From the NCBI GenBank assembly GCA_038238095.1, contig JBBRXZ010000001.1:1-55961 (forward strand): 55,961 nt of DNA, in the 5' to 3' direction. This stretch comes from Candidatus Saccharimonadales bacterium (GTDB lineage: Bacteria > Patescibacteriota > Saccharimonadia > Saccharimonadales > UBA4665). How positions within the stretch are numbered: the first letter of the stretch is position 1; the number at the start of each line of letters is the position of its first letter. Shown here one piece after another: positions 1 to 19,667 of this stretch. The notes beneath the pieces were generated by a model. That model did no database searches and had not been told where the DNA came from. It worked only from the letters and a program-made list of their open reading frames with translations. The position numbers and the translations under genes were made by a program.

Positions 1-1548
1 GGCGATAATGAATCTGGCAAATCTACAATTCTCGAAGCTATTCATCTTGTACTAAGTGGTATGTTTAGTGGACGCTATCTCAGGAATGAATTGACACAAT
101 ATATCTTTAACAATGAGGTTGTAGCTGAATATTTGTCTGAACTAGAGGCTCAAGGTACCGCCGAATTGCCTAGTGTGATCATCGAGGTCTATATCGAAGG
201 CGACAATCTTGCTAGATTTGAAGGAGATGATAATTCTGAGCGTAAGAATGGGTGTGGCATATCTCTGAAAATTGCTTTTGATGAAAAATATCAAAGCGAA
301 TACGAAGTGTTAGTCAAAGCTGGGAATATAAAGACCCTACCTCTTGAATACTATGATGTGTTTTGGAGTTCGTTCGCAAGAGAAGCTATAACAGCGAGGA
401 CAATACCCCTCAAGTCGGCTCTCATAGATTCAACTAGTAGTCGCTATCAAAATGGTTCAGATGTCTATATATCAAGAATTGTAAAAGATTTCTTAGAACC
501 AGCAGACGTAGTAGCAATATCTCAAGCACATAGAAAGATGAAGGACACATTCAGTGATGATGAGTCCGTAAAAACTATCAACTCAAAAATTAAGTTAGCT
601 ACTAACATCTCAAATAAAGACGTGAGACTATCCGTTGATTTGTCATCTAGGAATGCATGGGAAAATAGTCTGCTGACTTACTTAGATGACGTCCCTTTTC
701 ACTTCATCGGCAAGGGGGAGCAGTGTATTATCAAGACTAAGCTTGCTCTAAGTCATAAGAAATCACAGGAAGCAAACATAATACTTTTTGAAGAACCCGA
801 GAATCATCTTTCTCACACTAAACTAAACGAATTGATAAAAGAAGTATCAGATCATAGAGCCGGTAAACAAATAATCATATCGACTCATAGTAGTTTTGTT
901 GCAAATAAACTTGGGCTTGAAAGCCTAATACTTTTAAATGACCACAAAACTACTCGGCTTAATGACCTCTCGGATGAAACTAAATCGTTTTTTTCTAAGC
1001 TTTCTGGCTACGACACTCTGAGACTTATTCTTTGTAAAAAAGCGATACTGGTTGAGGGTGATTCAGATGAACTCATTGTGCAGAAAGCATACATGGGAAC
1101 TAACTCTAACGCCTTGCCTATAGAAAATGGGATAGATGTCATATCTGTCGGCACATCATTTCTTAGGTTTCTTGAGATTGCTAAAAAGATCAATAAATCC
1201 GTTGTAGTAGTGACCGATAATGACGGCAAACCTGATGCGGTTGAGAAAAAGTACAATGCTTATCTCGGTAAAAATGCAGTGAACACAATTAAAATCTGCT
1301 ATGACAAAAGTGTCGATACCGGGGAACTCGTGATTGACGGTGCTAAATTTAATTTCAATACTTTAGAGCCTAAGATTCTAAAAGTGAACTCTTTAGAATT
1401 ATTCAACAAAGTCTTCGGCAAAGCCTATAAAGACGTAGACGAAATGTACAAGCACATGAAAAGTAACAAAACGGAATGTGCTTTAAAAATATTCGATACT
1501 AGCGAAACAATAGTATTCCCACAATACATCTCTGATGCAATAAGTTAA
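1..1548 (+). CDS. OLD-family ATP-dependent endonuclease (ABC-type ATPase + TOPRIM), GajA-like; 5' end lies outside the window
   Basis: Frame 1 is open from nt 1 (GDNESGKSTILEAIHLVLSG = Walker A) into tracked ORF 61..1548. Walker B-like ILFEEPENHL, H-loop ISTHS, C-terminal TOPRIM motifs ILVEGDSDE and VVVTDNDG. Confidence 0.8.
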   Translation, partial: GDNESGKSTILEAIHLVLSGMFSGRYLRNELTQYIFNNEVVAEYLSELEAQGTAELPSVIIEVYIEGDNLARFEGDDNSERKNGCGISLKIAFDEKYQSEYEVLVKAGNIKTLPLEYYDVFWSSFAREAITARTIPLKSALIDSTSSRYQNGSDVYISRIVKDFLEPADVVAISQAHRKMKDTFSDDESVKTINSKIKLATNISNKDVRLSVDLSSRNAWENSLLTYLDDVPFHFIGKGEQCIIKTKLALSHKKSQEANIILFEEPENHLSHTKLNELIKEVSDHRAGKQIIISTHSSFVANKLGLESLILLNDHKTTRLNDLSDETKSFFSKLSGYDTLRLILCKKAILVEGDSDELIVQKAYMGTNSNALPIENGIDVISVGTSFLRFLEIAKKINKSVVVVTDNDGKPDAVEKKYNAYLGKNAVNTIKICYDKSVDTGELVIDGAKFNFNTLEPKILKVNSLELFNKVFGKAYKDVDEMYKHMKSNKTECALKIFDTSETIVFPQYISDAIS

Positions 1549-1550
1549 CT

Positions 1551-2657
1551 ATGGGCAACAATACGCTTTTAATCGCAGGAGCTGGCTCAGGTAAAACAAC
1601 TCACATAATTAATGATGCCCTAAAGAAAAATGAAGCGTCAATTCTGATTACCACATTTACACAGGCAAACGAGGAAGAGATTAAACGAAAGTTTATTGCG
1701 ATACATGGGTGCGTCCCCTCAAACGTGCACATTCAAACTTGGTTTTCTGTTTTACTGCAACACGGAGTAAGACCCTATCAGGGCGTGAAGTATCAAAAGA
1801 AAATAGAGGGTTTATTCTTGATAAGCGGTCAGTCAGCAACAGGAATAGCAGAGACGAATACAGCAAATCATTATTTTACGAAAGATGGGAAAATATATTC
1901 TGATAAGGTAGCTAAGTTTGCTATCAAGTGTAACGAGCAAGAAAGCAGCCCTGTCATTAACAGGCTTTCGAGAATATACACTGATATGTATGTAGATGAA
2001 GTGCAAGACCTCGCTGGCTATGACCTTGATTTCCTAAAACTTTTATTGGCATGCGACATGAATGTATGTCTCGTTGGTGATCCACGACAGGCGACTTATT
2101 CTACAAATCACTCTGCGAAGAATAAGCAGTATAAAAAGTCAGCCATAGTGAACTTCTTTGGCGATAAATCTATACAAATAGAGACCGATACCACATCGCT
2201 GAACACGAACTATCGTTGCAACAAGAGTATATGCGAAATATCAAATAAGCTTTACCCTGAGTTTGGAGCAGTACTCTCGGGCAATACGGACACCGACAAT
2301 CACACGGGCTTATATTTAGTTGGGATTCAAGATACCGCAAATTATCTTTCCGAGTTCGAGGCAATGCAGCTTAGAGACAGTGCAAAAAATAAGAAAATTG
2401 ACTCGAATTACAGCGTAATGACCTTCGGAAAAGCTAAAGGTTTAGAATTCAACAGGGTTATTATCTACCCAACTAAACCATTTATTGCTTGGCTGAAAGG
2501 ATCATCTACCGATCTCGCCCCAACTAGTAGGTCAAAATTGTATGTTGCCATTACAAGAGCAAAACTTAGTGTTGCCTTTGTTACTGACGAGTCTATAGAT
2601 ACTCACGGCATCAAGCGATGGGAGAACATTAGCAGTAAGGTTATAGTTAAGCTATGA
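1551..2657 (+). CDS. Minimal UvrD/PcrA-like SF1 helicase (GajB-like), 368 aa
   Basis: Walker A AGAGSGKT, motif II VDEVQD, motif III VGDPRQATY, C-terminal FGKAKGLEFNRVII and LYVAITRAK. Starts 2 nt after the upstream stop. Confidence 0.75.
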   Translation: MGNNTLLIAGAGSGKTTHIINDALKKNEASILITTFTQANEEEIKRKFIAIHGCVPSNVHIQTWFSVLLQHGVRPYQGVKYQKKIEGLFLISGQSATGIAETNTANHYFTKDGKIYSDKVAKFAIKCNEQESSPVINRLSRIYTDMYVDEVQDLAGYDLDFLKLLLACDMNVCLVGDPRQATYSTNHSAKNKQYKKSAIVNFFGDKSIQIETDTTSLNTNYRCNKSICEISNKLYPEFGAVLSGNTDTDNHTGLYLVGIQDTANYLSEFEAMQLRDSAKNKKIDSNYSVMTFGKAKGLEFNRVIIYPTKPFIAWLKGSSTDLAPTSRSKLYVAITRAKLSVAFVTDESIDTHGIKRWENISSKVIVKL

Positions 2658-4135
2658 AAATGCAAATATCAAAGTCTGAATACATGATGTTTCTTAAGCA
2701 CCCTGCTTGGTTGTGGCTTAAGAAGCACGATAAGGCAAAGCTTCCGCCAGTAGATGATAACACTCAGGCTATATTTGATGCTGGCAATCTTTTTGAAAGT
2801 TATGCCGAGCAACTCTTTCCCGATGGAGTAAAGATTGGGTTTAATGATTATAACGAGTATCTAAGTTTACCTGAACGTACCTCTAAAGCGTTAAGTGACG
2901 GAGCTAAAACAATCTTTCAAGGCCGGTTCGAGTATGACCAACTAACATTCATTTGCGACGTAATTCAAATTGTAGATACAAATGTGGTTGACCTCATTGA
3001 GATTAAATCCAGTACGAAGGCAAAAGCTGACCACGAATTTGATTTAGCGTTTCAGATGGTCGTGCTTGAAAATTGCGGATATGAAGTTCGCAACATCTCA
3101 GTCGTACATGTGAATAATCAGTTTGTAAGAAATGGTGAAGTGAAAGCCAGCGACATTACTGCAACCACAGACGTTAGCGAAGCCGTGAAATCTAAGAGAG
3201 ATTTAACAAAGCAACATATTGAGCAAGCTCTTAAAGTGGCGAACTCACAGACAATACCCGACATATCGTCTTCGCATGCTAGACTTGGGTCTTTTAATGA
3301 ATGGGTGGACATCTATAGGGGTTTGAAGCCCGTTGAACCTGAAAGCATCTATGACCTGTGTGTTGTTGGTGCGGAGCGAGTCGGTAAGCTTGAAAAGCTT
3401 AGAATTACCAAAATCAGCGATATTCCTGACGATTTTGAGCTTAGTGACAAACAGAAACTGCAAGTTAAAGCCACCAAGCTAAACCAGTTAATCCTTGAAA
3501 AGTACAAGATCAAAGAATATCTTGATTCATTCACGTTCCCACTTTATTTCTTTGATTACGAAACACTGGCAAGCATCGTGCCATATTTTGACGGCTTAAA
3601 GCCATATCAGCAATTGGCCTTCCAATACTCGCTTCACATTTTAGATAGTCCAGATGCAGAGCTAAGGCATGTTGAATATTTGCATCGTGAAAACTCTAAC
3701 CCTGCTGGACCATTAAGCAAAACTTTACAATCACAAATTGGGGATAGCGGATCTGTGATTACATGGAACATGAGCTTCGAGAAAAACTGCAACACACTGC
3801 TTGGGTCTATCGCATCAGAATACGCTGACTTTTACGAAAAGCTGAACGAGAGAATTGTGGATCTCATGATTCCTTTTTCAAAAGGTTGGTATGCTCATAA
3901 AGATTTCTATGGCAGTGCTTCAATTAAAAACGTATTGCCTGTAGTAGTGCCCGAACTTTCCTACAAGGCATTAGGAATACAGGAAGGTGGTTCTGCTCAG
4001 AGGTTATGGATGGATGCTGTGCTTGATGGCAAACGAGACGACCAAAAAGAACAGATTCTTGGTGACTTAGTCGAGTATTGCGGTCTAGACACACTCGCGA
4101 TGGTTGAAATCTACAAGAAACTTAGGAGTCTCTAG
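2654..4135 (+). CDS. Two-domain nuclease-like protein: N-terminal PD-(D/E)xK (Cas4/RecB-like) + C-terminal DEDDy exonuclease-like region (DUF2779-type)
   Basis: N-terminal CDVIQIV...DLIEIKSS...FQMVVLENCGY (D / ExK / QxxxY). C-terminal YFFDYET, WNMSFE, YCGLD resemble Exo I/II/III. PYQQLAFQYSLH recalls DUF2779 proteins (from memory). ATGA overlap with the helicase stop. Confidence 0.6.
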   Translation: MKMQISKSEYMMFLKHPAWLWLKKHDKAKLPPVDDNTQAIFDAGNLFESYAEQLFPDGVKIGFNDYNEYLSLPERTSKALSDGAKTIFQGRFEYDQLTFICDVIQIVDTNVVDLIEIKSSTKAKADHEFDLAFQMVVLENCGYEVRNISVVHVNNQFVRNGEVKASDITATTDVSEAVKSKRDLTKQHIEQALKVANSQTIPDISSSHARLGSFNEWVDIYRGLKPVEPESIYDLCVVGAERVGKLEKLRITKISDIPDDFELSDKQKLQVKATKLNQLILEKYKIKEYLDSFTFPLYFFDYETLASIVPYFDGLKPYQQLAFQYSLHILDSPDAELRHVEYLHRENSNPAGPLSKTLQSQIGDSGSVITWNMSFEKNCNTLLGSIASEYADFYEKLNERIVDLMIPFSKGWYAHKDFYGSASIKNVLPVVVPELSYKALGIQEGGSAQRLWMDAVLDGKRDDQKEQILGDLVEYCGLDTLAMVEIYKKLRSL

Positions 4136-4137
4136 TT

Positions 4138-4776
4138 ATGGACGTTGATCTTAAGAAGATTCTCTACAATATCAAAGGTAAAAAACTCCCTGTATCAGGA
4201 GGGTTAGGGCTAGATATAAACAGTCGAGTCATTATTGCTGAAACTTGTCATGATTTTGCGCTATCGCTAGTGAATGAAATTTCAAATGTCCTTATTAGTT
4301 TTTTCAAGATTGATCCCGTAACGGAAAAACAGACAGAAAAAGTTGAAGTTGATTCGTACAAGCTCGCTCGGGTCACAGTCACGTATGCGCACGAGGATGA
4401 TGATGGAGAAGAACTGAAGGAAGATGTAGTGCTGTACTTCGATATCTCATTATCTTATGGAAATATTGGACGATCACTTCAAGATGTTAAGTCAAAAGAA
4501 GAGATCGACATGCTTGTAGCCGATACTCAGGATAACTCGCACGCTACACGTTTATTGCCACATTTCGCTGATATGGTAGCTACATCAATTACTTATGGCT
4601 CAGTAGATCTGTTTGATGCTGATTTTGTCCATCTTTTCGACGTAACAGAAGATGATGCTAAGAGTGCAATAAAAATGCTGGACGAGTGTGGCCTGCTGGA
4701 TATACACGTTCACGAATACTACCAGAAATACTTTGGTCATATTTATCCAGAGGGATACTGGGAGATTATATGGTAG
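4138..4776 (+). CDS. Hypothetical protein (212 aa), acidic, no recognisable motif
   Basis: Long ORF starting 2 nt after the upstream stop, same strand and tight spacing as the flanking genes. Confidence 0.5.
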   Translation: MDVDLKKILYNIKGKKLPVSGGLGLDINSRVIIAETCHDFALSLVNEISNVLISFFKIDPVTEKQTEKVEVDSYKLARVTVTYAHEDDDGEELKEDVVLYFDISLSYGNIGRSLQDVKSKEEIDMLVADTQDNSHATRLLPHFADMVATSITYGSVDLFDADFVHLFDVTEDDAKSAIKMLDECGLLDIHVHEYYQKYFGHIYPEGYWEIIW

Positions 4777-5189
4777 CCATGAACGTCTACCTCGATATAG
4801 ATGGTGTACTACTCGCAAATGATCTAAATCCGGCAAACTACGCTAATGAGTTTCTGGAGTATGTCCTTACAAATTACCCAGATACGACTTATTGGCTTAC
4901 AACGCACTGTCAGGGTGATGCAAATGTACCAATTCAGCATATAGGTTATTTGTTTAAGCCTGAGACTGTCGAGCTAATGAAAAAGATAAAGCCTACGACT
5001 TGGGATCTTGCCAAGACAAGGGCTATAGATTTCTCGCAACCTTTTCTTTGGTTTGACGACGACTTGTTTTTTGAGGAGCGTGAAACGCTAACTAAGAATA
5101 ATGCAGTTGATAACTGGATAGAAGTAAATCTGCAAAAAGACCCAGATCAACTTAAGAAGTTTCTGACTTCTTTTCCTCTTCCAGTTTAG
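4770..5189 (+). CDS. HAD-superfamily phosphatase-like protein (about 139 aa)
   Basis: Motif I YLDIDGVL near the N-terminus and WFDDD near the C-terminus. Start chosen at ATG 4770 (ATGGTAG overlap with the upstream stop) or ATG 4779; the tracked start 4686 would overlap the upstream gene by 90 nt. Confidence 0.5.
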   Translation: MVAMNVYLDIDGVLLANDLNPANYANEFLEYVLTNYPDTTYWLTTHCQGDANVPIQHIGYLFKPETVELMKKIKPTTWDLAKTRAIDFSQPFLWFDDDLFFEERETLTKNNAVDNWIEVNLQKDPDQLKKFLTSFPLPV

Positions 5190-5275
5190 CTTTTCTTTTT
5201 TGCTCTAAGTCCATTTGAATGAGGACATCGAAATAGCCCGTAAGGTTCTTTAGCTCTTCTTCGGTTAACTTTTTA

Positions 5276-5851
5276 TCATCTGGTTTGTTGCTTTTTGACA
5301 TCCGATTTCCTTTTCTTAGCTTCAATTTGCTTGCGTTTCTCTAATGCTTCGTGCAACACGTTGGCTATATCAGGGTTCTCACGCTTCAGGATGATCATCT
5401 TACCGTTCTTAGCAGTTCTAGCCGTTATATGACCTCTAAGTACCAAATTACGTATGATTCTGGGCGTTAGCTCGCTAACTTCAGCGAGAACTTCAGGTGT
5501 AATGTGTTTTTGGTATTTTTTATCAGTATGGATATATTGGGGAAATAGCTTAGTATTGAACGCTTCGTAGCAATCGGGGCACTTCAAGCCGTTTTTGTCA
5601 TACCAGATTTGACCGTTAACCGTTCGTTTACAGAACGAGCAATTCCGACCGTCACTTAGGAACGAAAAACCTTTTGGTTCGTCCTCGAGTCTTCTGTCCC
5701 AACCATCGTGCTCAGTCTGACCATCATAGAGCACCTTCATCAAACTAATCAGCGAGTTTGCTTGGCGACGCATTTCAGCGTCAGATTCGTATACAATCCC
5801 TTTTTCGTCACTGATACGCTTGTATTCTTGATAATCCTTTTCTGTCAGCAT
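5276..5851 (-). CDS. Hypothetical zinc-ribbon protein with possible C-terminal HTH
   Basis: CSFCKRT...CPDCYEAF (CxxC-x17-CxxC). LAEVSELTPRIIRNLVLRGHITA is HTH-like. Start moved to ATG at 5851 (MLTEKDY), preceded by GGAAGGG. The tracked start at 5887 is a TTG. Confidence 0.45.
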   Translation of the reverse strand: MLTEKDYQEYKRISDEKGIVYESDAEMRRQANSLISLMKVLYDGQTEHDGWDRRLEDEPKGFSFLSDGRNCSFCKRTVNGQIWYDKNGLKCPDCYEAFNTKLFPQYIHTDKKYQKHITPEVLAEVSELTPRIIRNLVLRGHITARTAKNGKMIILKRENPDIANVLHEALEKRKQIEAKKRKSDVKKQQTR

Positions 5852-5892
5852 ATTTGACCCTTCCGCTACGTACCTATATTCTATCAATTATA

Positions 5893-5976
5893 GGGCTAGT
5901 AGTGTACGGAGCTCGCCATTTAGAAAGTCAAAGTTATCTACTTCGTTCTCCAACTCATCTATGAACCCCTGCCATT
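5893..5976. repeat. Direct repeat copy 1 (84 bp, about 82% identical to 7193..7276); minus strand reads as an orphan gene 3' end
   Basis: Hand alignment with 7193..7276 gives about 15 mismatches in 84. The minus frame gives WQGFIDELENEVDNFDFLNGELRTLLAL-stop with no usable start codon upstream (stop at 6065..6067). Confidence 0.75.
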
Positions 5977-5984
5977 GACATATG

Positions 5985-5993
5985 TGGTATAAT
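5985..5993 (+). promoter_or_regulatory. Extended -10 element (TGgTATAAT) upstream of the 6010 ORF
   Basis: tgtggtataat ends 17 nt before ATG 6010. The TTGACA at 5975..5980 is only 7 nt away, so it is not a matching -35. Confidence 0.35.
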
Positions 5994-6009
5994 GTAGTAA
6001 TGTTACTAT

Positions 6010-6432
6010 ATGAGTTTGTTTGAAGAAACGCCGGAAGGCTTACGCGACCAAATATGGAATAATATCAATGGAGTTAATCCAGATGACTGGTATGCGCATA
6101 GCGTAGGAAACCCTTATGGAATAGTACTCGTTGCTGCTCCAGCATACGGAGCGGCTACAGTTGAGGTAAATCTAGCGAATCACCCGTTTTTTGCTTCCGG
6201 TGGAGATAGCTTATCTATATGTTCTGATGTGAGCGGTTGCAGCAAAGATTTGAACACAACAAAAAGAATAGTTAACGCTGTGATCCACGGTGTTGAAATT
6301 GATGAATGTTATGACGGTGATTTGATTGTAGTTAACAACCGGGAGAGGCCAATAACTCCTGGCCTCATAGCTAAGTTTTCCGAACTAGTTGCAATCACCG
6401 AGTTTCAGGCTCCAGTACGTCGACCGCTTTAA
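6010..6432 (+). CDS. Hypothetical protein (140 aa)
   Basis: ORF only; no motif recognised. First gene of the repeat-bracketed cassette. Confidence 0.4.
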   Translation: MSLFEETPEGLRDQIWNNINGVNPDDWYAHSVGNPYGIVLVAAPAYGAATVEVNLANHPFFASGGDSLSICSDVSGCSKDLNTTKRIVNAVIHGVEIDECYDGDLIVVNNRERPITPGLIAKFSELVAITEFQAPVRRPL

Positions 6433-6555
6433 AGCCCGGGCGCTTATTGGGCCATGCTTGTCTAAGTATTGCTTCTGCTCTTTGAAAAGTGTAAGTGTCG
6501 TTTTCGATTCCGCTTTTTCTTAGGCTATGGGTGGGTTAAAAAGTATACTTAATAG

Positions 6556-7089
6556 ATGGCCAAGAAATCCATTACCTATGCCTTTATTGATAGTCAAAAT
6601 CTCAACCTAGGTGTTAAAAGTGCCGGCTGGACGCTGGACTTTCGCAAGTTTCGACTGTATCTCAAGAATAAGTATGGCGTGGAAAAAGCATACCTATTCA
6701 TAGGCCAAATGGTTGGCCAAGAGTCACTCTACGATCGTTTGCAAAACATGGGTTATCATCTGATCTTTAAGCCCACTACCGAGTATAAAGTGGCGGGCAA
6801 GACTGTAGTCAAAGGCAACGTGGACGCTGAACTCGTGCTATACGCTGCCGCTAAAGTCATCAATGAATACCATAAGGCTATTATCGTGACCGGCGACGGC
6901 GATTTTCATTGTCTGGTGGAATATTTGAAAGAACAGGATAAGTTACTGCACGTCATGGTGCCAAATGACAAATTTTCCAAACTGCTGCGACGGTTCACCA
7001 AGGACATTGTCAGAATCAACCCTCTCAGACCAAAATTACAATACACGCCAACTAAAAAGACCAGGAGTAGCGGTCGGTCGAAACCTTAG
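6556..7089 (+). CDS. NYN-domain (LabA/DUF88-like, PIN-like RNase fold) protein
   Basis: N-terminal AFIDSQNL, central acidic DAELV, and IVTGDGDFHCLVEYL are typical of NYN/LabA proteins. Confidence 0.7.
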   Translation: MAKKSITYAFIDSQNLNLGVKSAGWTLDFRKFRLYLKNKYGVEKAYLFIGQMVGQESLYDRLQNMGYHLIFKPTTEYKVAGKTVVKGNVDAELVLYAAAKVINEYHKAIIVTGDGDFHCLVEYLKEQDKLLHVMVPNDKFSKLLRRFTKDIVRINPLRPKLQYTPTKKTRSSGRSKP

Positions 7090-7192
7090 GCCTGCCTGGT
7101 CATGGTGATACTTGCAGTATAGCAAAAATTGACACCTTAGGCAATAGCCATTGGCTATCAATGCCACATACCTAGTTTATACTAGCAAGGAA

Positions 7193-7276
7193 GGGCCAGT
7201 AGTGTCTTGAGCTCACCGCTGAGAAAGTCAGAGCTATCAATTTCTTTCTCCAACTCATCCATGAACCCCTGCCAAT
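7193..7276. repeat. Direct repeat copy 2 (partner of 5893..5976); truncated gene 3' fragment on the minus strand
   Basis: Minus frame gives (stop)TNWQGFMDELEKEIDSSDFLSGELKTLLALPC-stop. An in-frame TAA lies two codons before the W. Confidence 0.75.
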
Positions 7277-9133: not shown

Positions 9134-9209
9134 TGGAGCCACCTGTCGGATTCGAACCGACGACCTTCACTTTACAAAAGTGTTGCTCTAGCCACTGAGC
9201 TAAGGTGGC
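9134..9209 (-). tRNA. tRNA-Thr (anticodon UGU), CCA encoded
   Basis: Hand-folded cloverleaf: acceptor GCCACCT/AGGTGGC, D arm GCTC..GAGC, anticodon loop TTTGTAA, T arm GTCGG-TTCGAAT-CCGAC. Confidence 0.85.
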
Positions 9210-9221
9210 ACACACCCTCGA

Positions 9222-9650
9222 TTAAATAGATTTTTTAATGTATTTAAGCCTTCTCCAATCTCTGCCCATACCTCTATTAAGGTTTCTAAAGCTTGGAGTC
9301 AATGAGTGGCAATTTGGACAAATTAGGCGTAGATTGATTTCGAGATTATTTTCAGCGTTACCGTCTATGTGATCTATTTCTAAAGGCACCCTTCCGGTAG
9401 TTTCACTTACTCTATCCCAGCCACATAAAGAGCATGAAGCGCCGTATTTATCACGTAAGTATCGCCGTAAATGTCCAGAAATATTTTTAGCAGTGACGCC
9501 TCGGCTACCACTAACTTCACCGCGTTGCCATTTGACAACATACTCATGATACTGCCAGTCACCTTGGCACTTATTGGAGCAGTAGCGATAAGTCGATCTT
9601 TTAGCTGGCTTACCACACTGCAGACATAAAGACATGTGAGAAGTATACAC
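9222..9650 (-). CDS. HNH endonuclease
   Basis: N-terminal CLQCGK...YCSNKC zinc-finger-like region. LEIDHIDGNAENNLEINLRLICPNCH is an HNH core. Confidence 0.8.
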   Translation of the reverse strand: MYTSHMSLCLQCGKPAKRSTYRYCSNKCQGDWQYHEYVVKWQRGEVSGSRGVTAKNISGHLRRYLRDKYGASCSLCGWDRVSETTGRVPLEIDHIDGNAENNLEINLRLICPNCHSLTPSFRNLNRGMGRDWRRLKYIKKSI

Positions 9651-9755
9651 TTATCTAGTTTTGTTAAATAACCGCCAGATCCTTGTGTTGCACTGACAGA
9701 TGTAAAGTGTAGCAAAAACAGAGAGAATTTGCTACTATTTGTTTAGTTTCTGCCT

Positions 9756-9830
9756 GCCATCTTAGCTCAGGGGTAGAGCACATCCATGGTAAGGATGGGG
9801 TCCGGGGTTCAAATCCCCGAGATGGCTCCA
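9756..9830 (+). tRNA. tRNA-Thr (anticodon GGU), CCA encoded
   Basis: Acceptor GCCATCT/AGATGGC, anticodon stem CATCC/GGATG with loop ATGGTAA, T arm CGGGG-TTCAAAT-CCCCG. Confidence 0.85.
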
Positions 9831-9840
9831 TGTACAAAAC

Positions 9841-9926
9841 GCAGGGTTAGTGAAGCGGTCAAACACGGCAGACTGTAAATCTGCTGGCTTATGCCTTCGC
9901 AGGTTCGAATCCTGCACCCTGCACCA
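9841..9926 (+). tRNA. tRNA-Tyr (anticodon GUA), long variable arm, CCA encoded
   Basis: Acceptor GCAGGGT/ACCCTGC, anticodon stem GCAGA/TCTGC with loop CTGTAAA, extra arm, T arm GCAGG-TTCGAAT-CCTGC. Confidence 0.85.
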
Positions 9927-10002
9927 CAGATTAGAGCATTATAGAAGTCGAAACTTTGTTTAACCCTTGTAATTACACTTATTTCAATTAAACTCATAAC
10001 TA

Positions 10003-11025
10003 ATGAGCCTGTCTGCTATCGAAGAAGATATTCTTAAATCAATTGTTGTTGCCTCAGAAAACGATCCTTTAAAACCTGAGTTTCCTGTGGATGATCCTAA
10101 GTTTCCGGCAACTCCAACATATCAAATAGATGTTACCGGCTTCTCTAATGTTTGGCTAAAAGACGAGAGCCATAATCCAACCGGCACACATAAGGATAGG
10201 ATGGCTTGGGAAATTATTGTGACCTACCATGACTTCCTGTTAGCCAAAAAACATGCCCAAAGCAGTGAGCCATTACCCAGTATGTCCATAATCTCCTCTG
10301 GATCTGCAGCGATTGCCATTCAGACCCAACTCCGAAAATACAAGTTGCCAAACCTTAAAGTTTTGGTTGACTCTGCTATTTCTCCCACTAATCTGGCCTA
10401 CATGAAAAAACTGGGTTGTGAGATTTACGAAACGAGCTTGAGCAACAAGCCGCTTCATTGGAAAGATATCCTCAAGTTAACCCATAATCCTAACGGTTTT
10501 GACATAACTTCCAGCGAAGCACTCGACCCAACAACTCGTTTCTATGACTGGCTTAGTTATGAAATTATCAACTCTTCGCCTGACTATTGTTTTATACCGT
10601 TTGGTACAGGCAATTTGTTTGAGAACGTGTTAAATATCAATAAACGAGAAGTCTCGACCTCCAATCATGATCCAAGATTTAAGGGCAATGTCGACAAGTT
10701 AAGGCAATGTAGCTTTATGGCAGCCACTACCAATAATCCCAACTCGAAAGCCGGCAAGCTGTACTCTCCCCACCTGCCCTTCGTTCATTATGACGAACAG
10801 TGGATGCGGCTCTATAGGTATGCCGGTTTTTGTGGCCCAGAATCCAATGTTTATAATATGAAGGAAGAATATCTTGATGAGGCGATTGTATTATCTAATG
10901 AACTAGGGATTAAGTGTGAGCCTTCTGGAATTGCCGGATTGGCTCTGTTGCTCCAGATACAAGAAAAGATACCAAAGGATAAGAAGATCCTTATAGTAAA
11001 TACTGGAAAGACAAAGATTCATTAA
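10003..11025 (+). CDS. Fold-type II PLP-dependent enzyme (Trp-synthase-beta / Thr-synthase superfamily), specificity unknown
   Basis: ESHNPTGTHKDRMAW resembles the PLP-lysine motif (NPTGSFKDR). Also SSGSAAIA and a glycine-rich FGTGN loop. Confidence 0.5.
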   Translation: MSLSAIEEDILKSIVVASENDPLKPEFPVDDPKFPATPTYQIDVTGFSNVWLKDESHNPTGTHKDRMAWEIIVTYHDFLLAKKHAQSSEPLPSMSIISSGSAAIAIQTQLRKYKLPNLKVLVDSAISPTNLAYMKKLGCEIYETSLSNKPLHWKDILKLTHNPNGFDITSSEALDPTTRFYDWLSYEIINSSPDYCFIPFGTGNLFENVLNINKREVSTSNHDPRFKGNVDKLRQCSFMAATTNNPNSKAGKLYSPHLPFVHYDEQWMRLYRYAGFCGPESNVYNMKEEYLDEAIVLSNELGIKCEPSGIAGLALLLQIQEKIPKDKKILIVNTGKTKIH

Positions 11026-11123
11026 CCGGTTAGGTAGCAGTGTGAATGTTGACCTGAACAGTGTTCTAGGTCTAGACTCAAACATATTAACTTTGATGCT
11101 AGAGCATTCAAGAAGAGTTGTGT

Positions 11124-11681
11124 ATGTCTTTATTAAAAGTAGTCCGGTTGGGGCATCCATCGCTTAGGGCGAAGTCAAAGGCCGTTACTAAGAAAGAGCT
11201 GAAATCCAAGGCATTTCAAAAGTTTTTGGATGATTTGGCGCAAGTTTGCGATAAAAATCAGGGAGCCGGGATCGCGGCGCCGCAAGTAGGTGTTAATAAG
11301 CAGGTTATCGTGGTGCATATAGACCCTAAAAACCCACGTTATCCCAGGAAGAAGCCTTTTCCGCTTACCATTGTTATTAATCCTAAAGTCTTAAAACGTA
11401 GTAAAGCGACAATAGAAGATTGGGAAGGTGATCTGTCCTGTGACTTACGAGCCCTTGTCCCCCGCCCTAAAAGTTGCGTTATCGCCGGTCTAGACCGCCA
11501 TGGCCAGCCAGTAACCTATAACTTAAGATACGATTTTCACGCCCGCGTTTTTCAGCATGAAATTGATCACCTTGACGGCATGTTTTTACTGGATAGGGTT
11601 AAGCGAAAGGAAACCATTAGCGAGACGGCCGAATGGAAAAAATATTGGAAGCCCAAGAAATCCGGTAAACGCGCGGATTAG
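11124..11681 (+). CDS. def: Peptide deformylase
   Basis: Motif 1 GAGIAAPQVG and motif 3 QHEIDHLDG. Motif 2 reads EGDLSC instead of EGCLS. ATG at 11124; the tracked start 11118 is a TTG. Confidence 0.8.
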   Translation: MSLLKVVRLGHPSLRAKSKAVTKKELKSKAFQKFLDDLAQVCDKNQGAGIAAPQVGVNKQVIVVHIDPKNPRYPRKKPFPLTIVINPKVLKRSKATIEDWEGDLSCDLRALVPRPKSCVIAGLDRHGQPVTYNLRYDFHARVFQHEIDHLDGMFLLDRVKRKETISETAEWKKYWKPKKSGKRAD

Positions 11682-12334
11682 ACAACTACTCGGCGGCGGT
11701 GGCGGAGGATGCGCTTGGCGCGGCCGGCTGGGGCTTTGAACTTTTTAAGCCGGTCGGCTATAAGGTCGGCTTCGGCTTCCTGGCCATGACTTTTGTAGGC
11801 TTTGAAAAGTAGTGTGAAGGTTTCGCGGTTTGGCTCAAGCTCCGAGGCTTTCTCCAACTCCTGGAACATCATTTTGTCGTTGCCGAGTTTTTCCTGGACT
11901 TTGGCATAAGCCACGTGGCGGGCAGCCAGGCCATCTTCCAGTTTCAAGGCCTGTTCAAAAGCCACAGCAGCTTTTTCGTAGTTTTCAGTCTCATAATAAA
12001 TTAGCCCCAGATTATGCAGACTTGAAGCCGTGGCCTCAATGCTAGAAGCGATCTCGAAGCAGTCTATGGCATCGCGGTACTCTTTCTGCTTAGCATAGAG
12101 AATGCCCAGTCGGTTATAGGCGGGGGCATTCTTTTCGTCAATTTTCAGGATGGTCAGCAGGGCCTTTTCGGCGCGCAGGAAGCGGTGTTCGCGCATACCC
12201 TGATGGGAAATATCCCATAATTTGCCTAGCCGGTCGCCGACTTTTCTGGAGACATTGGCAAACTCATCGTCATGGACCTGGGAGTTATGGTATGCCAAGG
12301 CACCGAAGGCCGCTACTATTATTAGCTCATACAT
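11678..12334 (-). CDS. TPR-repeat protein with N-terminal membrane anchor
   Basis: Hydrophobic N-terminus. Repeated A-x-x-Y/F-x-x-A-L..P helix pairs (YNRLGILYAKQKEYRDAIDCFEIA, LHNLGLIYYETENYEKAAVAFEQAL). Confidence 0.6.
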   Translation of the reverse strand: MYELIIVAAFGALAYHNSQVHDDEFANVSRKVGDRLGKLWDISHQGMREHRFLRAEKALLTILKIDEKNAPAYNRLGILYAKQKEYRDAIDCFEIASSIEATASSLHNLGLIYYETENYEKAAVAFEQALKLEDGLAARHVAYAKVQEKLGNDKMMFQELEKASELEPNRETFTLLFKAYKSHGQEAEADLIADRLKKFKAPAGRAKRILRHRRRVVV

Positions 12335-12357
12335 CGATCGCTATAGTATAGCATGGG

Positions 12358-13215
12358 CTAAAAACCGAGCATCAGCTTAGTCAGAGCCAGCTTAGGCTGG
12401 GCACTGCCAGACAGGGCTTCGGCCGCTTCGTAGCTGGCGGTGAGGACGTCTTGCCATTTTTTGGCGGTTGCACCTTTGGCGTTCTGGAGACTGACATGAG
12501 CCATTTGCTGGAGTATGAAGCATAAGTTCAGGGCGTGCTCACGCTGTTTGGATAATTCATCGACTGATAGGAGGCGCTCGTAAGGCGATTGACTGAGCAG
12601 TTGGCGAGCCATTTCAGTAGCCTGCGTCAGCGGATGATCGATTTGATTAAGCAGGGCCTGCATCAGACCGGGAAGACCGCCGGAAATAGCGTACGCCCGG
12701 ATTATCGCCTTATCGTCAAAGTTCTGGAGCTTAAAATGGTCTTGTACGTCCGCCTTAGCTGGTCGTTTTATGTCTATTAATTGGGCTCGGGAACGGACGG
12801 TAGGCAGTAAGGCCTTTTCGTGATTAACACTCAATATAATAAGAGTGCCGGCTGGCGGCTCCTCCAGTGTTTTGAGCAGAGCGTTTTGAGCCTCAGCAGT
12901 CAACAGATGGGCAGCTTCTATAACGACCGCTCGGTTATGTGTTGCCGCTCTAGGCACCTTTAGGGTTAAAAAGTGTTCCAGTTCCCGTACGGCTTCGATA
13001 CCTATAGATTTGCCTTCAGCTGTGCCAATAATCAATTTGTAGGGATAATTTGTGAAGGTGCCGGCTGGCAGCTCAAGTACTGCTTCGCTCAATTTAGTGG
13101 CCATGGTTTGCTTACCGCTGCCTACAGGTCCGGCCAGCATAACCGCATGTGACGGTGACGACACAAAATCATCAATCTGGCGACGGGTTACCGGGTGCAA
13201 TATCAGATTGTTCAT
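12358..13215 (-). CDS. holB: DNA polymerase III delta-prime subunit
   Basis: HAVMLAGPVGSGKQT, NALLKTLEEPP, TVRSRAQ. Confidence 0.75.
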   Translation of the reverse strand: MNNLILHPVTRRQIDDFVSSPSHAVMLAGPVGSGKQTMATKLSEAVLELPAGTFTNYPYKLIIGTAEGKSIGIEAVRELEHFLTLKVPRAATHNRAVVIEAAHLLTAEAQNALLKTLEEPPAGTLIILSVNHEKALLPTVRSRAQLIDIKRPAKADVQDHFKLQNFDDKAIIRAYAISGGLPGLMQALLNQIDHPLTQATEMARQLLSQSPYERLLSVDELSKQREHALNLCFILQQMAHVSLQNAKGATAKKWQDVLTASYEAAEALSGSAQPKLALTKLMLGF

Positions 13216-14069
13216 ACCTTAAAAAGCTCCTTGAAATCCGGCGGCAAGAGCACTTTGAACACCTTTCGCTGCTTGTTCGGCAAAGTTATTTCCAGGCTTA
13301 AAGCCTGTAAAAATAGCCGCTCAGCTGACTTGCCGCCGTAGAAAGTATCACCAACTATAGGATGGCCGAGGTGCTCTAAGTGAACCCGGAGCTGGTGGGT
13401 CCGGCCGGTTGTCGGAATTAGTTCAAGTAAACTGAGCTTTCCATCTGTTTTTAAGACTTTGTAAGCCGTAACTGCGGATTTGCCATTGCTGCCAACACGG
13501 AAGGTCTGCGGTTTCTTCGGGTTTCGCTCAATCGGCATGTCTATTATGGCTTGCTCCTGCTTTGGCACTCCTGTAACTATTGCCGCATAAGTCTTTTTGA
13601 CTTTACGCTGCGAGAACTGTTTTTGCAGCCAGCCGAGAGCTGCCGGCGTCTTAGCGCAAATCATCACGCCGCTGGTAGCCCGATCCAGGCGATGGACAAT
13701 GCCCGCCCGCTCGCCTTTCAATGATTTCATCCGGCTCCGCAGCCAGGTAGATACCGTCGCTTCAGGATTAAAAGCGCCCTTGCTATGTGTTAGTAAGCCG
13801 ACGGGCTTATTGATGACTACGCAGTCATCATCTTCATATAGTATAGGCAGCTCAATATCGGGGAACTCCACGGTTTTGGCCGGATCATGGCCGATATTGA
13901 TCTGATCGGCTTCCCGCACTTTATAGCCGGCCTTTAATTGCGGTTCGCCATTGACGGCTATGTCGCCGTCTTCGATTAACCTTACCGCAAAGCTCCGGCT
14001 CACCCCGGGGCGATGCCGCACCACATACTGGTCGAGCCGTTCTGCCCTGCTCACCTTTAAATTGCTCAT
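13212..14069 (-). CDS. rluD: RluA-family 23S rRNA pseudouridine synthase (RluD-like, S4 domain)
   Basis: N-terminal S4-like RLDQYV. Catalytic HRLDRATSGVMI, and GRTHQLRVH. Confidence 0.8.
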   Translation of the reverse strand: MSNLKVSRAERLDQYVVRHRPGVSRSFAVRLIEDGDIAVNGEPQLKAGYKVREADQINIGHDPAKTVEFPDIELPILYEDDDCVVINKPVGLLTHSKGAFNPEATVSTWLRSRMKSLKGERAGIVHRLDRATSGVMICAKTPAALGWLQKQFSQRKVKKTYAAIVTGVPKQEQAIIDMPIERNPKKPQTFRVGSNGKSAVTAYKVLKTDGKLSLLELIPTTGRTHQLRVHLEHLGHPIVGDTFYGGKSAERLFLQALSLEITLPNKQRKVFKVLLPPDFKELFKV

Positions 14070-15086: not shown

Positions 15087-15246
15087 AACTTTCCCTATTA
15101 TATAGCTTCTCGCCTGACCAGCATATTACCTAATGGAAGGCTGTAACGGTTCCGCATATAATTCTCCTTTATCCGGCGGATTATAGCTGAGCTTTTGGTT
15201 TGCCGTGAATAGACGTTAGGAGCAGGGCTCTAACTGATTAGATGGT

Positions 15247-18982: not shown

Positions 18983-19662
18983 TGTCACCTAAATATTGTC
19001 TGCCGATTATAAAAAGCCAAAAATCCGAAGTATTGGAAGATATTGACTCTAGCCAGAACGAATACAGTTATTTTGAAGTGTGGCTGGATTATATTGATGA
19101 CCTGGACGAGGCTTTTATAAGACAGCTGGTTGAACTTTTACACGACAAATTAATTTTGTTATTCCGCAGGCAGAATCTGGAAACTATAAAAATGAGCCTG
19201 GAACAACGATTTACCATTCTTGATTTGCTTAAAGATGCTGAAACGCTGATCGATCTAGATGTAAGTGTTCAGGCAGATGAGCTGGATCATATAAAGAAGA
19301 ATGACTTATCGATCAAAACCATAGCTTCCTATCATAACTACCACGAGACACCGGCCACGGCACAGTTTAAAACAATTATTGGTATAATGGAGAGGTATCA
19401 GCCGAGCATTTATAAACTCGCCACATTGTGCAACAGTCACGATGACGCTTTAAGGCTTTTGGCACAATTACTTGAGCTCAAATCTCAGGGTAAGCGCGTG
19501 ATTATTGTTGGTATGGGTAATAATGGTATGGCTACCAGGATTCTTGGAACTTTGTGGGGTAATGAAATGGCTTTTGCCCCCAAGTCCATAGCAGAACAAT
19601 CAGCGCCAGGTCAGCTAACCAGAAATCAGCTGGAAACAATACTAACGGAGTTAAGGGGTTAA
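18982..19662 (+). CDS. aroD: 3-dehydroquinate dehydratase, type I
   Basis: FEVWLDY (the usual E-x-R-x-D reads E-x-W-x-D here), SYHNYHETP, lysine in SIYKLATL. Position between aroE and aroC. Confidence 0.7.
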
Positions 19663-19667
19663 ATATT

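What the first reader, a model, noticed from the sequence alone, without database searches (positions are those of the whole stretch)
2654..4135. PD-(D/E)xK plus DEDDy-like exonuclease fusion coupled to the OLD/helicase pair
The N-terminal third carries D...ExK...QxxxY (CDVIQIV / DLIEIKSS / FQMVVLENCGY), as in Cas4/RecB nucleases. The C-terminal half carries DYET, WNMSFE and YCGLD spaced like Exo I/II/III of DnaQ-type 3'-5' exonucleases. The PYQQLAFQYSLH segment recalls DUF2779, a family with no assigned function. Its start codon overlaps the helicase stop, which argues for stoichiometric co-expression.
Basis: partly seen in the sequence, partly recalled or inferred. Interest (0 to 1): 0.65.

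Follow-up and report, generated by a model that had tools for sequence, protein, structure and literature searches.

The report
Two-headed nuclease riding behind defence genes
The gene encodes a predicted double nuclease of the uncharacterised DUF2779 family that sits directly behind a Gabija anti-phage pair here, but near-identical copies elsewhere sit behind other defence systems, so it looks like a portable defence-island gene, not a Gabija subunit.

Summary
The ORF (2654-4135, +, 493 aa) and every quoted motif are real. Its ATG overlaps the upstream stop (ATGA). The domain calls hold. The N-terminal part is a Cas4/RecB-type PD-(D/E)xK domain, with D102, E116, K118 and Q134 conserved in 124-126 of 126 distant relatives. 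The C-terminal part is a DEDDy-type 3'-5' exonuclease, with D301, E303, E376, Y475 and D479 in all 126, and it is itself Pfam DUF2779 (5.9e-37). This architecture was already described in 2014 and 2026.

Two details are wrong. The tyrosine of 'QxxxY' is Leu138 here. The Cas4 iron-sulfur cysteines are absent.

The upstream pair is Gabija: GajA (OLD) plus a short GajB. The coupling is real but not specific. GajA-GajB-DUF2779 with the same junction recurs in three other contigs, yet there the nuclease is 94%, 67% and 34% identical while GajB stays 82-91%. Copies 87-93% identical to this one follow SIR2-HerA or a lone OLD gene. Across 82 loci it trails type I/IIG restriction, GmrSD, AAA_13, Shedu and STAND genes.

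Best reading: a portable end-processing nuclease of defence islands in Patescibacteria. No biochemistry exists for the family.

The parts
1..1548 (+). GajA (OLD-family ABC-ATPase + TOPRIM nuclease). About 30 N-terminal residues are cut off by the window's left end.
   Evidence: Frame 1 reads GDNESGKST (Walker A) from base 1. PADLOC GajA PDLC00102 E=3.2e-196. Pfam OLD-like_TOPRIM E=2e-11. The window copy aligns to L169 4451-5995, inside that locus's 545-aa GajA gene (4361-5998).
1551..2657 (+). Short GajB (368 aa, UvrD-like SF1 helicase).
   Evidence: PADLOC GajB PDLC00148 E=3.8e-132, covering model positions 2-367 of 369. Pfam UvrD-helicase and UvrD_C hits. 3866 relatives at E<=1e-10.
2654..2657 (+). 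ATGA overlap of the GajB stop with the nuclease start.
   Evidence: The same ATGA or GTGA junction is present in L086, L169 and L171.
2654..4135 (+). DUF2779-family two-domain nuclease, 493 aa (the finding).
   Evidence: AlphaFold2 mean pLDDT 89.4.
2654..3238 (+). N-terminal Cas4/RecB-type PD-(D/E)xK domain (about aa 1-195). Catalytic candidates are D102 (2957-2959), E116 (2999-3001), K118 (3005-3007) and Q134 (3053-3055).
   Evidence: Foldseek Cas4 4r5q E=2.7e-4 with probability 1.00; Cas4-Cas1 7mi4, Exo5 and AdnAB also hit. PADLOC Cas4 E=1.4e-4. Pfam Cas_Cas4 E=0.0026, below its cut-off. D102 126/126, E116 125/126, K118 126/126, Q134 124/126.
3239..3538 (+). Helical region between the two nuclease cores (about aa 196-295). 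In most relatives it carries three of the four Cas4-type cysteines, which are missing here.
   Evidence: Secondary structure. Cys occupies the columns of aa 16, 212, 218 and 224 in 88, 67, 97 and 55 of 126 relatives; the window has H, G, V and L.
3539..4132 (+). C-terminal DEDDy-type (DnaQ/RNase T-like) exonuclease domain, which is Pfam DUF2779. Exo I is D301/E303 (3554-3562), Exo II is WNMSFE with E376 (3779-3781), Exo III is Y475-x3-D479 (4076-4090).
   Evidence: Pfam PF11074 covers aa 298-423. D301, E303, E376, D403, Y475 and D479 are each in 126 of 126 relatives. The domain model has pLDDT 97.6. Its top Foldseek hits are RNase T, ERI2, 3'hExo and Maelstrom, but with E only 0.05-0.1. Relative P0216 also hits Pfam RNase_H_2 at E=1e-4.
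4138..4776 (+). ORF4, a 212-aa orphan 2 nt after the nuclease stop. It is not part of the conserved unit.
   Evidence: No Pfam, NCBIfam or PADLOC hit. No homologue in any fetched locus. L086 and L169 carry a different shared 275-aa gene in this position.
4752..5189 (+). ORF5, 145 aa, with HAD-like motifs (DIDGVL ... WFDDD). It is a recurrent downstream neighbour of DUF2779 genes.
   Evidence: Homologues at 55-77% identity lie directly after the nuclease in L003, L019, L021, L072, L073 and L178, and one small ORF further on in L085. Only a non-significant HAD_SAK_2 hit, E=0.13.
5276..5887 (-). 203-aa Cys-rich (zinc-ribbon-like) protein, convergent with the array. It recurs at this side of the island.
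   Evidence: Homologues in L169 (82.5%), L007, L008 and others. About 71-80% nucleotide identity to L209 and L169 over 5184-5981.

Best explanation
The ORF encodes a cytoplasmic two-headed nuclease of the DUF2779/PF11074 family. One head is a Cas4/RecB-type PD-(D/E)xK domain that has lost the iron-sulfur cysteines. The other head is a DEDDy 3'-5' exonuclease. The gene is a portable resident of defence islands in Patescibacteria (CPR bacteria). It usually sits co-directionally and tightly spaced behind whatever defence cassette occupies the slot upstream, and here that cassette is Gabija (GajA-GajB). The domain identity, the residue conservation and the neighbourhood pattern are shown. The mechanism is inferred: the protein acts on DNA ends or nicks made by the neighbouring DNA-cutting systems (GajA, restriction enzymes, GmrSD, Shedu). 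The Cas4-like head would trim 5'-ended strands and the DEDDy head 3'-ended strands. Broken invader DNA would then be destroyed rather than repaired, a RecBCD/AddAB-like clean-up supplied by a single helicase-less polypeptide. In the window it is probably co-transcribed and translationally coupled with GajB, but it is not a Gabija-specific subunit.
For: Domains. Catalytic residues are kept in 124-126 of 126 relatives at 30-57% identity. Published HHpred assignments for the family agree (PMC3985635; PMC13621843). Neighbourhoods: at least 39 of 82 loci have a recognised defence gene within three genes upstream or one downstream. These include HsdR/HsdM, Eco57I/MmeI-like methylases, GmrSD, AAA_13/PDC-S06, SIR2-HerA, Shedu and STAND. 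Of 80 immediate upstream genes, 69 are co-directional and 51 lie within 50 bp. Portability: among nuclease pairs >=90% identical, only 4 of 19 share a homologous upstream gene and 4 of 16 a downstream one. Homology with L087 and L088 stops at the gene borders. L169 and L209/L210 share the frame [PLD-SNF2][methylase]-X-Y-[DUF2779]; the shared upstream part is about 81% identical at nucleotide level, and X-Y is GajAB or SIR2-HerA. Two copies occur on one contig or in one MAG: 95.5%, 84% and 47% identical. Fusions to Z1, DUF4391 and a restriction-endonuclease-like domain exist. Plasmid copies in Arcobacter, Helicobacter and Rhodoferax lie among restriction, Fic, WYL and PLD genes. In the source metagenome the Gabija-nuclease stretch has word depth about 5-7 against about 14 for the backbone, so it appears polymorphic.
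Against: No member of the family has been assayed. The fold match of the exonuclease domain is only E about 0.05, and a profile search of PDB sequences found nothing significant. Sixteen of 82 loci show only housekeeping neighbours such as RecA, FKBP, HAD and hydrolases. A mycoplasma relative is quasi-essential, which suggests a housekeeping role for at least part of the family. Four-base overlaps are common in compact CPR genomes (my own knowledge), so they say little about function. SIR2-HerA, AAA_13 and STAND partners are not simple DNA-cutters, which fits a clean-up role less well. Defence labels were assigned to only the 20 largest neighbour clusters plus Shedu. No background rate for random CPR genes was measured.
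Confidence: 0.42

Rival explanations
1. It is a housekeeping DNA-end processing or nucleotide-salvage nuclease. It would be a resection or recycling enzyme of genome-reduced bacteria that lack RecBCD/AddAB, and it merely lies beside a hot spot where defence cassettes accumulate.
For: MMSYN1_0389, a DUF2779 protein, is quasi-essential in the minimal cell JCVI-syn3.0. RecA lies two to three genes upstream in L060, L065 and L075, and 16 of 82 loci have only housekeeping neighbours. A HAD-like ORF5 recurs downstream, and a 5'-nucleotidase follows the gene on an Arcobacter plasmid. The gene is the constant element while the upstream cassettes change.
Against: Both flanks turn over equally fast, so there is no stable core flank. 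Several contigs or MAGs carry two copies. Identity of 59-75% to contigs binned outside Saccharimonadia or outside Patescibacteria altogether (Dormiibacterota, Izemoplasmatales, Levyibacteriota) looks like horizontal transfer, although binning errors are possible. Fusions to Z1, DUF4391 and restriction-endonuclease-like domains exist. The stretch has reduced depth in the source population.
Confidence: 0.25
2. It is a self-sufficient single-gene defence nuclease. It co-localises with other systems only because defence genes cluster, and it needs no partner.
For: The defence-island enrichment and portability are the same as for the best explanation. Some loci show no co-directional defence partner. 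The gene is not in PADLOC-DB 2.0, so it would be an unlisted system.
Against: An unregulated double nuclease would be toxic, and no sensor or regulatory domain is visible in 493 aa. In 51 of 80 loci it lies within 50 bp behind a co-directional gene, which suggests dependence on upstream expression.
Confidence: 0.15
3. It is a dedicated third subunit of a three-component Gabija. It would bind the GajA-GajB complex in fixed stoichiometry and serve as its exonucleolytic effector.
For: GajA-GajB-DUF2779 with the same 4-base junction occurs in the window, L086, L169 and L171. A solitary OLD-family gene directly precedes a 92%-identical nuclease copy in L211. No promoter or terminator signal above the shuffled background lies between the genes.
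Against: While GajB stays 82-91% identical, the nuclease is 94, 67 and 34% identical, so there is no co-evolution. Nucleases 87-93% identical to the window's follow SIR2-HerA instead. The Gabija at 62% GajB identity (L172/L173) and the one more distant locus with enough downstream sequence (L089) lack it. Gabija is rare among the surveyed loci, with no GajA hit in the 80 genome loci. Published Gabija structures and mechanisms involve two proteins (my own knowledge).
Confidence: 0.12

Closest known systems
PF11074 / DUF2779 family (e.g. MMSYN1_0389 of JCVI-syn3.0; NCBIfam UU173 family)
   Same: It has the same two-domain architecture: a Cas4-like PD-(D/E)xK domain followed by a DEDD-type exonuclease with Tyr in place of His. 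The same acidic residues and lysine are conserved.
   Different: The window protein is 493 aa, against the 650-position UU173 model. It scores 74 bits against that model's 225-bit cut-off. It lacks all four Cas4-type cysteines. It lies in a defence array rather than being a quasi-essential housekeeping gene.
Cas4 nucleases (Pcal_0546 4R5Q, SSO0001 4IC1, Cas4-Cas1 7MI4)
   Same: The N-terminal domain shares the fold (Foldseek E=2.7e-4, probability 1.0) and the D...ExK...Q catalytic set.
   Different: It has no Fe-S cysteines. No CRISPR-like repeat array was found by a tandem-repeat scan of the window, and none of the eight ORFs scanned beside the gene is a cas gene. It is fused to an exonuclease. 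The Pfam Cas_Cas4 score (18.3) is below the cut-off (22.7).
TM0106 / COG2251 family (TIGR03491; Cas4-like domain + RNase_H_2 PF13482)
   Same: It is an analogous fusion of a RecB/Cas4-like nuclease with an RNase H-like 3'-5' exonuclease. Majorek et al. 2014 place it in the same exonuclease clade.
   Different: It is a separate family: 15.8 bits against a cut-off of 97.45. According to that paper, COG2251 proteins often carry tandem AAA domains.
DEDDh/DEDDy exonucleases (RNase T, ERI2, 3'hExo, MrfB, the Klenow proofreading domain)
   Same: The order and approximate spacing of Exo I (DxE), Exo II (N-x2-F-acid) and Exo III (Y-x3-D) match. The core is RNase H-like, and these are the top structural hits.
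   Different: The Exo II acid is Glu376 rather than Asp. Structural similarity is weak (TM 0.35-0.42, E about 0.05). Extra family-specific invariant residues exist (H328, S423, K425, C476).
Gabija (GajA-GajB)
   Same: The two upstream genes are clear GajA and GajB, of the short-GajB subtype already modelled in PADLOC.
   Different: Canonical Gabija has two genes. The published 'GajC' is a MazF-like protein that replaces GajA in type II Gabija and is unrelated to this nuclease. I found no paper linking Gabija to DUF2779.
RecBCD / AddAB / AdnAB end-processing machines
   Same: This is a likeness of function only. A RecB-type nuclease head acts on DNA ends, and AdnAB nuclease domains are among the structural hits. 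These machines degrade restricted foreign DNA (established knowledge).
   Different: There is no helicase in the polypeptide and no Chi-type regulation is known. The second head is a DEDDy exonuclease rather than a second RecB-type domain.

Membership tests
Pfam PF11074 (DUF2779) | Score above the curated gathering threshold of the family model | tested here: met
   127.2 bits against a cut-off of 23.3, E=5.9e-37, full model 1-126 on aa 298-423.
PD-(D/E)xK, Cas4/RecB branch | Catalytic D ... (D/E)xK motif conserved across relatives | tested here: met
   D102 126/126, E116 125/126, K118 126/126.
PD-(D/E)xK, Cas4/RecB branch | QxxxY motif | tested here: not met
   Q134 is in 124 of 126 relatives, but position +4 is Leu138 (L/F/I/Y/M across the family). 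Y143 is in only 33 of 126.
PD-(D/E)xK, Cas4/RecB branch | Fold similarity to solved Cas4/RecB-type nucleases | tested here: met
   4r5q E=2.7e-4, probability 1.00, TM (target) 0.51. 7mi4, Exo5, AdnAB and ACE1 follow.
Cas4 proper | Four cysteines binding an Fe-S cluster | tested here: not met
   The window has H16, G212, V218 and L224 where 55-97 of 126 relatives have Cys.
Cas4 proper | Pfam Cas_Cas4 above threshold, and association with CRISPR-cas | tested here: not met
   18.3 bits is below the 22.7 cut-off. A tandem-repeat scan found no CRISPR-like array in the window. None of the eight ORFs scanned beside the gene is a cas gene; the rest of the window was not scanned for cas genes.
DEDDy (DnaQ-like) 3'-5' exonuclease | Exo I DxE, Exo II acidic residue, Exo III Y-x3-D, conserved across relatives | tested here: met
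   D301, E303, E376 (Glu rather than Asp), Y475 and D479 are each in 126 of 126 relatives.
DEDDy (DnaQ-like) 3'-5' exonuclease | RNase H-like exonuclease fold | tested here: inconclusive
   The domain model has pLDDT 97.6. The top hits are all DEDD exonucleases (RNase T, ERI2, 3'hExo, Maelstrom), but with E 0.05-0.1 and TM 0.35-0.42. A profile search of PDB sequences gave only E=0.78, to the Exo II motif of a Pol I. Published HHpred for a relative gives E=5e-7 to MrfB.
DEDDy (DnaQ-like) 3'-5' exonuclease | Metal-dependent 3'-5' exonuclease activity | not testable with these tools
   This needs purified protein. No assay of any family member was found in the literature searched.
Gabija | GajA (OLD ATPase-TOPRIM) followed by GajB (UvrD-like helicase) | tested here: met
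   PADLOC GajA 3.2e-196 and GajB 3.8e-132. The genes are adjacent with a 2-nt gap. This applies to the neighbours, not to the finding.
Gabija | The nuclease is a constant, co-evolving component of the system | tested here: not met
   Nuclease identity is discordant (94/67/34%) against GajB (91/89/82%). It is absent from L172/L173, and from L089, the one more distant Gabija locus with enough downstream sequence. The same nuclease at 87-93% identity follows SIR2-HerA. PADLOC has no model for it.
NCBIfam UU173 family (NF045869) and TM0106 family (TIGR03491) | Score above the curated cut-off | tested here: not met
   74.4 bits against 225, and 15.8 bits against 97.45.

The most novel reading that the evidence does not exclude
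DUF2779 nucleases are a generic, exchangeable 'end-destroyer' module. They plug in behind many unrelated anti-phage systems (Gabija, SIR2-HerA, restriction-modification, GmrSD, AAA_13/PDC-S06, Shedu, STAND NTPases) and are required for, or strongly boost, their protection in bacteria that lack RecBCD/AddAB. This would be a shared downstream effector that no defence catalogue has yet recognised.
Probability: 0.25. Interest if true: 0.7.

Novelty: new member of a known kind. Interest (0 to 1): 0.45.

Why it matters
The family is large: 7264 clusters at 50% identity match. It has no experimental function and is absent from the PADLOC defence catalogue tested here. One member is quasi-essential in the minimal synthetic cell. 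If the gene serves as a shared DNA-end-degrading partner of many defence systems, three things would follow. It would explain how bacteria with tiny genomes finish off cut phage DNA. It would add a new accessory component to Gabija and SIR2-HerA arrays. It would also give a testable function to a long-standing domain of unknown function. If the gene is only a housekeeping nuclease beside a hot spot, it would still be a useful marker for finding defence islands in Patescibacteria.

Tried and rejected
- A sequence search of PDB chains with the single protein found nothing. The same search with a 96-sequence profile gave one hit at E=0.78.
- The metagenome scan for GajB relatives was nearly useless. 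Its patterns hit generic UvrD helicases, so only 5 of 80 loci were close relatives. I used exact-protein look-ups instead.
- The phage collection gave no match in 50,697 records, so a phage origin is rejected. The 31 IMG/VR hits were not examined gene by gene and may be islands or prophage-like regions.
- The promoter and terminator scan of 1-7200 was no better than shuffled sequence.
- No RNA runs contain the region, so co-transcription could not be tested.
- 'GajC' in the literature is an unrelated MazF-like protein.
- I considered the idea that the nuclease is a stable core gene anchoring a hot spot. It is weakened because downstream neighbours turn over as fast as upstream ones, copies are duplicated within contigs, and the stretch is under-represented in its own metagenome.
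- ORF4 as a fourth component is rejected. It has no homologue in any locus, and the sister loci L086 and L169 carry a different gene in that position.
- No literature on RecBCD/AddAB content of Patescibacteria was found.
Full report
**1. The observation**

ORF 2654..4135 on the + strand encodes 493 aa. The start codon overlaps the stop of the preceding ORF (1551..2657) as ATGA. The next ORF, 4138..4776, starts 2 nt after the stop.

**2. Neighbours in the window**

- The two upstream genes are a Gabija pair. ORF 1..1548 is GajA and runs off the left end of the window. Frame 1 reads the Walker A motif GDNESGKST from base 1. It hits PADLOC GajA at 3.2e-196 and Pfam OLD-like TOPRIM at 2e-11.
- ORF 1551..2657 is a short (368 aa) GajB. 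It hits PADLOC PDLC00148 at 3.8e-132 over the whole 369-position model.
- The first 6 kb has lower G+C (0.38-0.41) than the rest of the window (0.42-0.53). Three tRNA genes lie at 9.1-9.9 kb.
- The closest relatives are from Saccharimonadia and other Patescibacteria.

**3. What the protein is**

- Pfam gives DUF2779 at 5.9e-37 on aa 298-423. It gives a sub-threshold Cas_Cas4 hit on aa 101-178. PADLOC gives only weak Cas4 hits (1.4e-4) and has no model of its own for this protein.
- The full-length AlphaFold2 model has mean pLDDT 89.4. Its best PDB match is Cas4 Pcal_0546 (4r5q, E=2.7e-4, probability 1.00). Next come Cas4-Cas1, human Exo5, AdnAB and ACE1 for the N-terminal half, and RNase T, ERI2 and Maelstrom for the C-terminal half.
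- The C-terminal domain modelled alone (pLDDT 97.6) again finds DEDD exonucleases first, then integrases and RNase H. The E-values are only 0.05-0.1 and TM is 0.35-0.42. The fold evidence for this half is therefore consistent but not significant on its own.
- Residue conservation is strong. An exhaustive HMMER search found 7264 cluster representatives at E<=1e-3.
- I aligned the window protein with 125 full-length representatives at 30-57% identity (126 sequences). The conserved residues are:

| Domain | Residue | Sequences (of 126) |
|---|---|---|
| PD-(D/E)xK | D102 | 126 |
| PD-(D/E)xK | E116 | 125 |
| PD-(D/E)xK | K118 | 126 |
| PD-(D/E)xK | Q134 | 124 |
| DEDDy | D301 | 126 |
| DEDDy | E303 | 126 |
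| DEDDy | E376 | 126 |
| DEDDy | D403 | 126 |
| DEDDy | Y475 | 126 |
| DEDDy | D479 | 126 |

- WNMSFE fits the Exo II pattern (aromatic-N-x-x-F-acid), with Glu in place of Asp. Y-x3-D is the DEDDy form of Exo III.

- The Tyr of 'QxxxY' is Leu138 here, and Y143 is not conserved.
- Most relatives have cysteines in the columns of aa 16, 212, 218 and 224, the Cas4 iron-sulfur pattern. The window protein has H, G, V and L there.

DUF2779 is not a third element. It is the Exo I-Exo II part of the exonuclease domain.

**4. What is already published**

- Majorek et al. 2014 placed PF11074 in the 3'-5' exonuclease clade of the RNase H-like superfamily. They noted its co-occurrence with DUF83, the Cas4-like PD-(D/E)xK domain (PMC3985635).
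- A 2026 paper on JCVI-syn3.0 describes the quasi-essential DUF2779 protein MMSYN1_0389 as a Cas4-like plus DEDD(y) fusion, with both sites predicted active (PMC13621843).
- The architecture is therefore known. I found no biochemical data for the family.

**5. Is it coupled to Gabija?**

The triple GajA-GajB-DUF2779 with the same 4-base junction is found in three other contigs: L086, L169 and L171. The genes do not track each other:

| Locus | GajB identity to window | Nuclease identity to window |
|---|---|---|
| L086 | 91% | 94% |
| L169 | 89% | 67% |
| L171 | 82% | 34% |

- Nucleotide identity to L169 drops about 200 nt into the nuclease gene. Identity to L171 drops just after its start.
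- Close relatives of the window's nuclease sit behind other genes:
  - L087 (87%) follows a HerA fragment, and homology starts exactly at the start codon.
  - L088 (77%) follows a GmrSD_N protein.
  - L209 and L210 (91% and 93%) follow SIR2-HerA.
  - L211 (92%) follows a solitary OLD-family gene and precedes a BipA GTPase.
- A Gabija with 62% GajB identity has no such gene. Of the more distant Gabija loci, only L089 has several kb of sequence after GajB, and it has none either.
- L169 and L209/L210 share the frame [PLD-SNF2 helicase][Eco57I/MmeI-like methylase]-X-Y-[DUF2779]...[203-aa Cys-rich gene on the opposite strand]. The shared upstream part (helicase and the start of the methylase) is about 81% identical at nucleotide level, the 203-aa gene region about 74%, and the nuclease about 67%. 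X-Y is either GajA-GajB or SIR2-HerA.

**6. Wider survey**

- I called ORFs in 80 species-level genome loci plus look-up loci and clustered their neighbours.
  - The 295 neighbouring proteins fall into 199 clusters.
  - Of 80 immediate upstream genes, 69 are co-directional and 51 lie within 50 bp.
  - Labelled clusters include type I HsdR (11 loci) and HsdM-like (6), Eco57I/MmeI-like enzymes (7), GmrSD (7) and GmrSD_N-only proteins (4), and C5 methylases (6).
  - Also labelled are AAA_13/PDC-S06 (5), HerA (5) with SIR2 (3), UvrD-like helicases (3), Shedu (2) and a STAND NTPase (3).
- At least 39 of 82 loci have such a neighbour. Sixteen show only housekeeping neighbours: RecA, FKBP, HAD and alpha/beta hydrolases. 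Several initially unlabelled upstream genes are also helicase-nucleases or ResIII helicases.
- Among nuclease pairs at least 90% identical, only 4 of 19 share a homologous upstream gene and 4 of 16 a downstream one. Using three genes on either side, the figures are 6 of 19 and 7 of 21. Both flanks therefore change faster than the nuclease diverges by 10%.
- Two copies occur on one contig or in one MAG: L017/L018 at 95.5%, L041/L043 at 84%, and L181/L187 at 47%.
- Fusions exist: Z1+DUF2779 (1403 aa, with a second member of 1414 aa), DUF4391+DUF2779, and DUF2779+DUF2726/MTES_1575 restriction-endonuclease-like domain.
- Outside Patescibacteria, 29 plasmids carry relatives, mainly from Arcobacter and Helicobacter. 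In the four plasmid regions examined, these lie beside PD-(D/E)xK nucleases, AAA+ ATPases, WYL, Fic, PLD and restriction genes.
- No phage record has a relative.
- In the metagenome that holds the window, the Gabija-nuclease stretch has assembler depth about 5-7, against about 14 for 10-20 kb. One contig joins the nuclease start (from 2659) to unrelated upstream sequence. Assembler word depth is a coarse measure.

**7. Interpretation**

Three things are shown.
- The protein is a DUF2779-family double nuclease with both catalytic sets intact.
- The gene lies in a defence array and is probably co-expressed with GajB.
- The gene is a portable unit that keeps its sequence while its neighbours are exchanged.

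The role is inferred. I favour (0.42) a role as a DNA-end or nick processing enzyme that works in trans with whichever DNA-cutting system is nearby. This would be a helicase-less analogue of the RecBCD/AddAB clean-up of restricted DNA.

The rivals are:
- a housekeeping resection or salvage nuclease beside a hot spot (0.25). The syn3.0 quasi-essentiality, the RecA neighbours and the recurrent HAD-like or 5'-nucleotidase neighbours support it;
- a stand-alone defence gene (0.15);

**8. Verdict**

The fold assignments are correct but already published. The Gabija coupling is real locally but not specific. The new element is the pattern of one conserved nuclease trailing many interchangeable defence cassettes in Patescibacteria. 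That pattern makes the gene a reasonable candidate for an unlisted defence-associated component. It rests on neighbourhood statistics without a measured background rate and without any experiment.

Noticed in passing
L169 1-10200; L209 1-11300; L210 1-9900; window 1-5981: Related contigs share the island frame [PLD-SNF2 helicase ~1175 aa][Eco57I/MmeI-like methylase]-slot-[DUF2779]...[203-aa gene on the minus strand]. The two-gene slot holds either GajA-GajB or SIR2-HerA. The shared upstream part is about 81% identical at nucleotide level, and the methylase C-terminal (specificity) part also differs.
   Followed up: partly
window 4752-5189 (+): ORF5 (145 aa) has HAD-phosphatase-like motifs (DIDGVL, WFDDD) but no significant family hit. 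It recurs directly downstream of DUF2779 genes in six other loci and one small ORF further on in L085. An Arcobacter plasmid has a 5'-nucleotidase in the same position.
   Followed up: partly
window 4138-4776 (+): ORF4 (212 aa) is an orphan with no family hit and no homologue in any of about 200 fetched loci. The sister loci L086 and L169 carry a shared 275-aa gene there instead (84% identical to each other), also without a significant family hit.
   Followed up: partly
window 5276-5887 (-): This 203-aa protein has a CxxC...CxxC zinc-ribbon-like segment. It is convergent with the defence array and recurs near DUF2779 genes in L169 (82.5%), L007, L008, L068, L081 and others. Its function is unknown.
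   Followed up: no
window 6556-7089 (+): A NYN-domain (PIN-like RNase) gene lies about 2.4 kb downstream of the array (Pfam 2.4e-15).
   Followed up: no
window 1-4400 versus 10000-20000: In the metagenome that contains the window, the Gabija-nuclease stretch has assembler depth about 5-7 against about 14 for the backbone, and it is broken into short contigs. One contig joins position 2659 to unrelated upstream sequence. This suggests strain-level polymorphism of the island.
   Followed up: partly
L017/L018, L041/L043, L181/L187: Two DUF2779 genes lie on one contig or in one MAG, with different neighbours. The pairs are 95.5%, 84% and 47% identical.
   Followed up: partly
P0166/P0391, P0175, P0147: Natural fusions of the whole double nuclease exist with a Z1 domain protein (1403 and 1414 aa), with DUF4391, and with a DUF2726/MTES_1575 restriction-endonuclease-like domain. 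Only the Z1 fusion has a second member; the other two are singletons.
   Followed up: partly
window 1551-2657: GajB here is 368 aa, shorter than the roughly 490-aa GajB of the studied Bacillus system (my own knowledge). This short form is widespread, with 3866 relatives at E<=1e-10 including Sphingobacterium, and it has its own PADLOC model.
   Followed up: no
window 9134-9926: tRNA-Thr(TGT), tRNA-Thr(GGT) and tRNA-Tyr(GTA) genes lie close to the low-G+C defence stretch. This may mark the island boundary.
   Followed up: no
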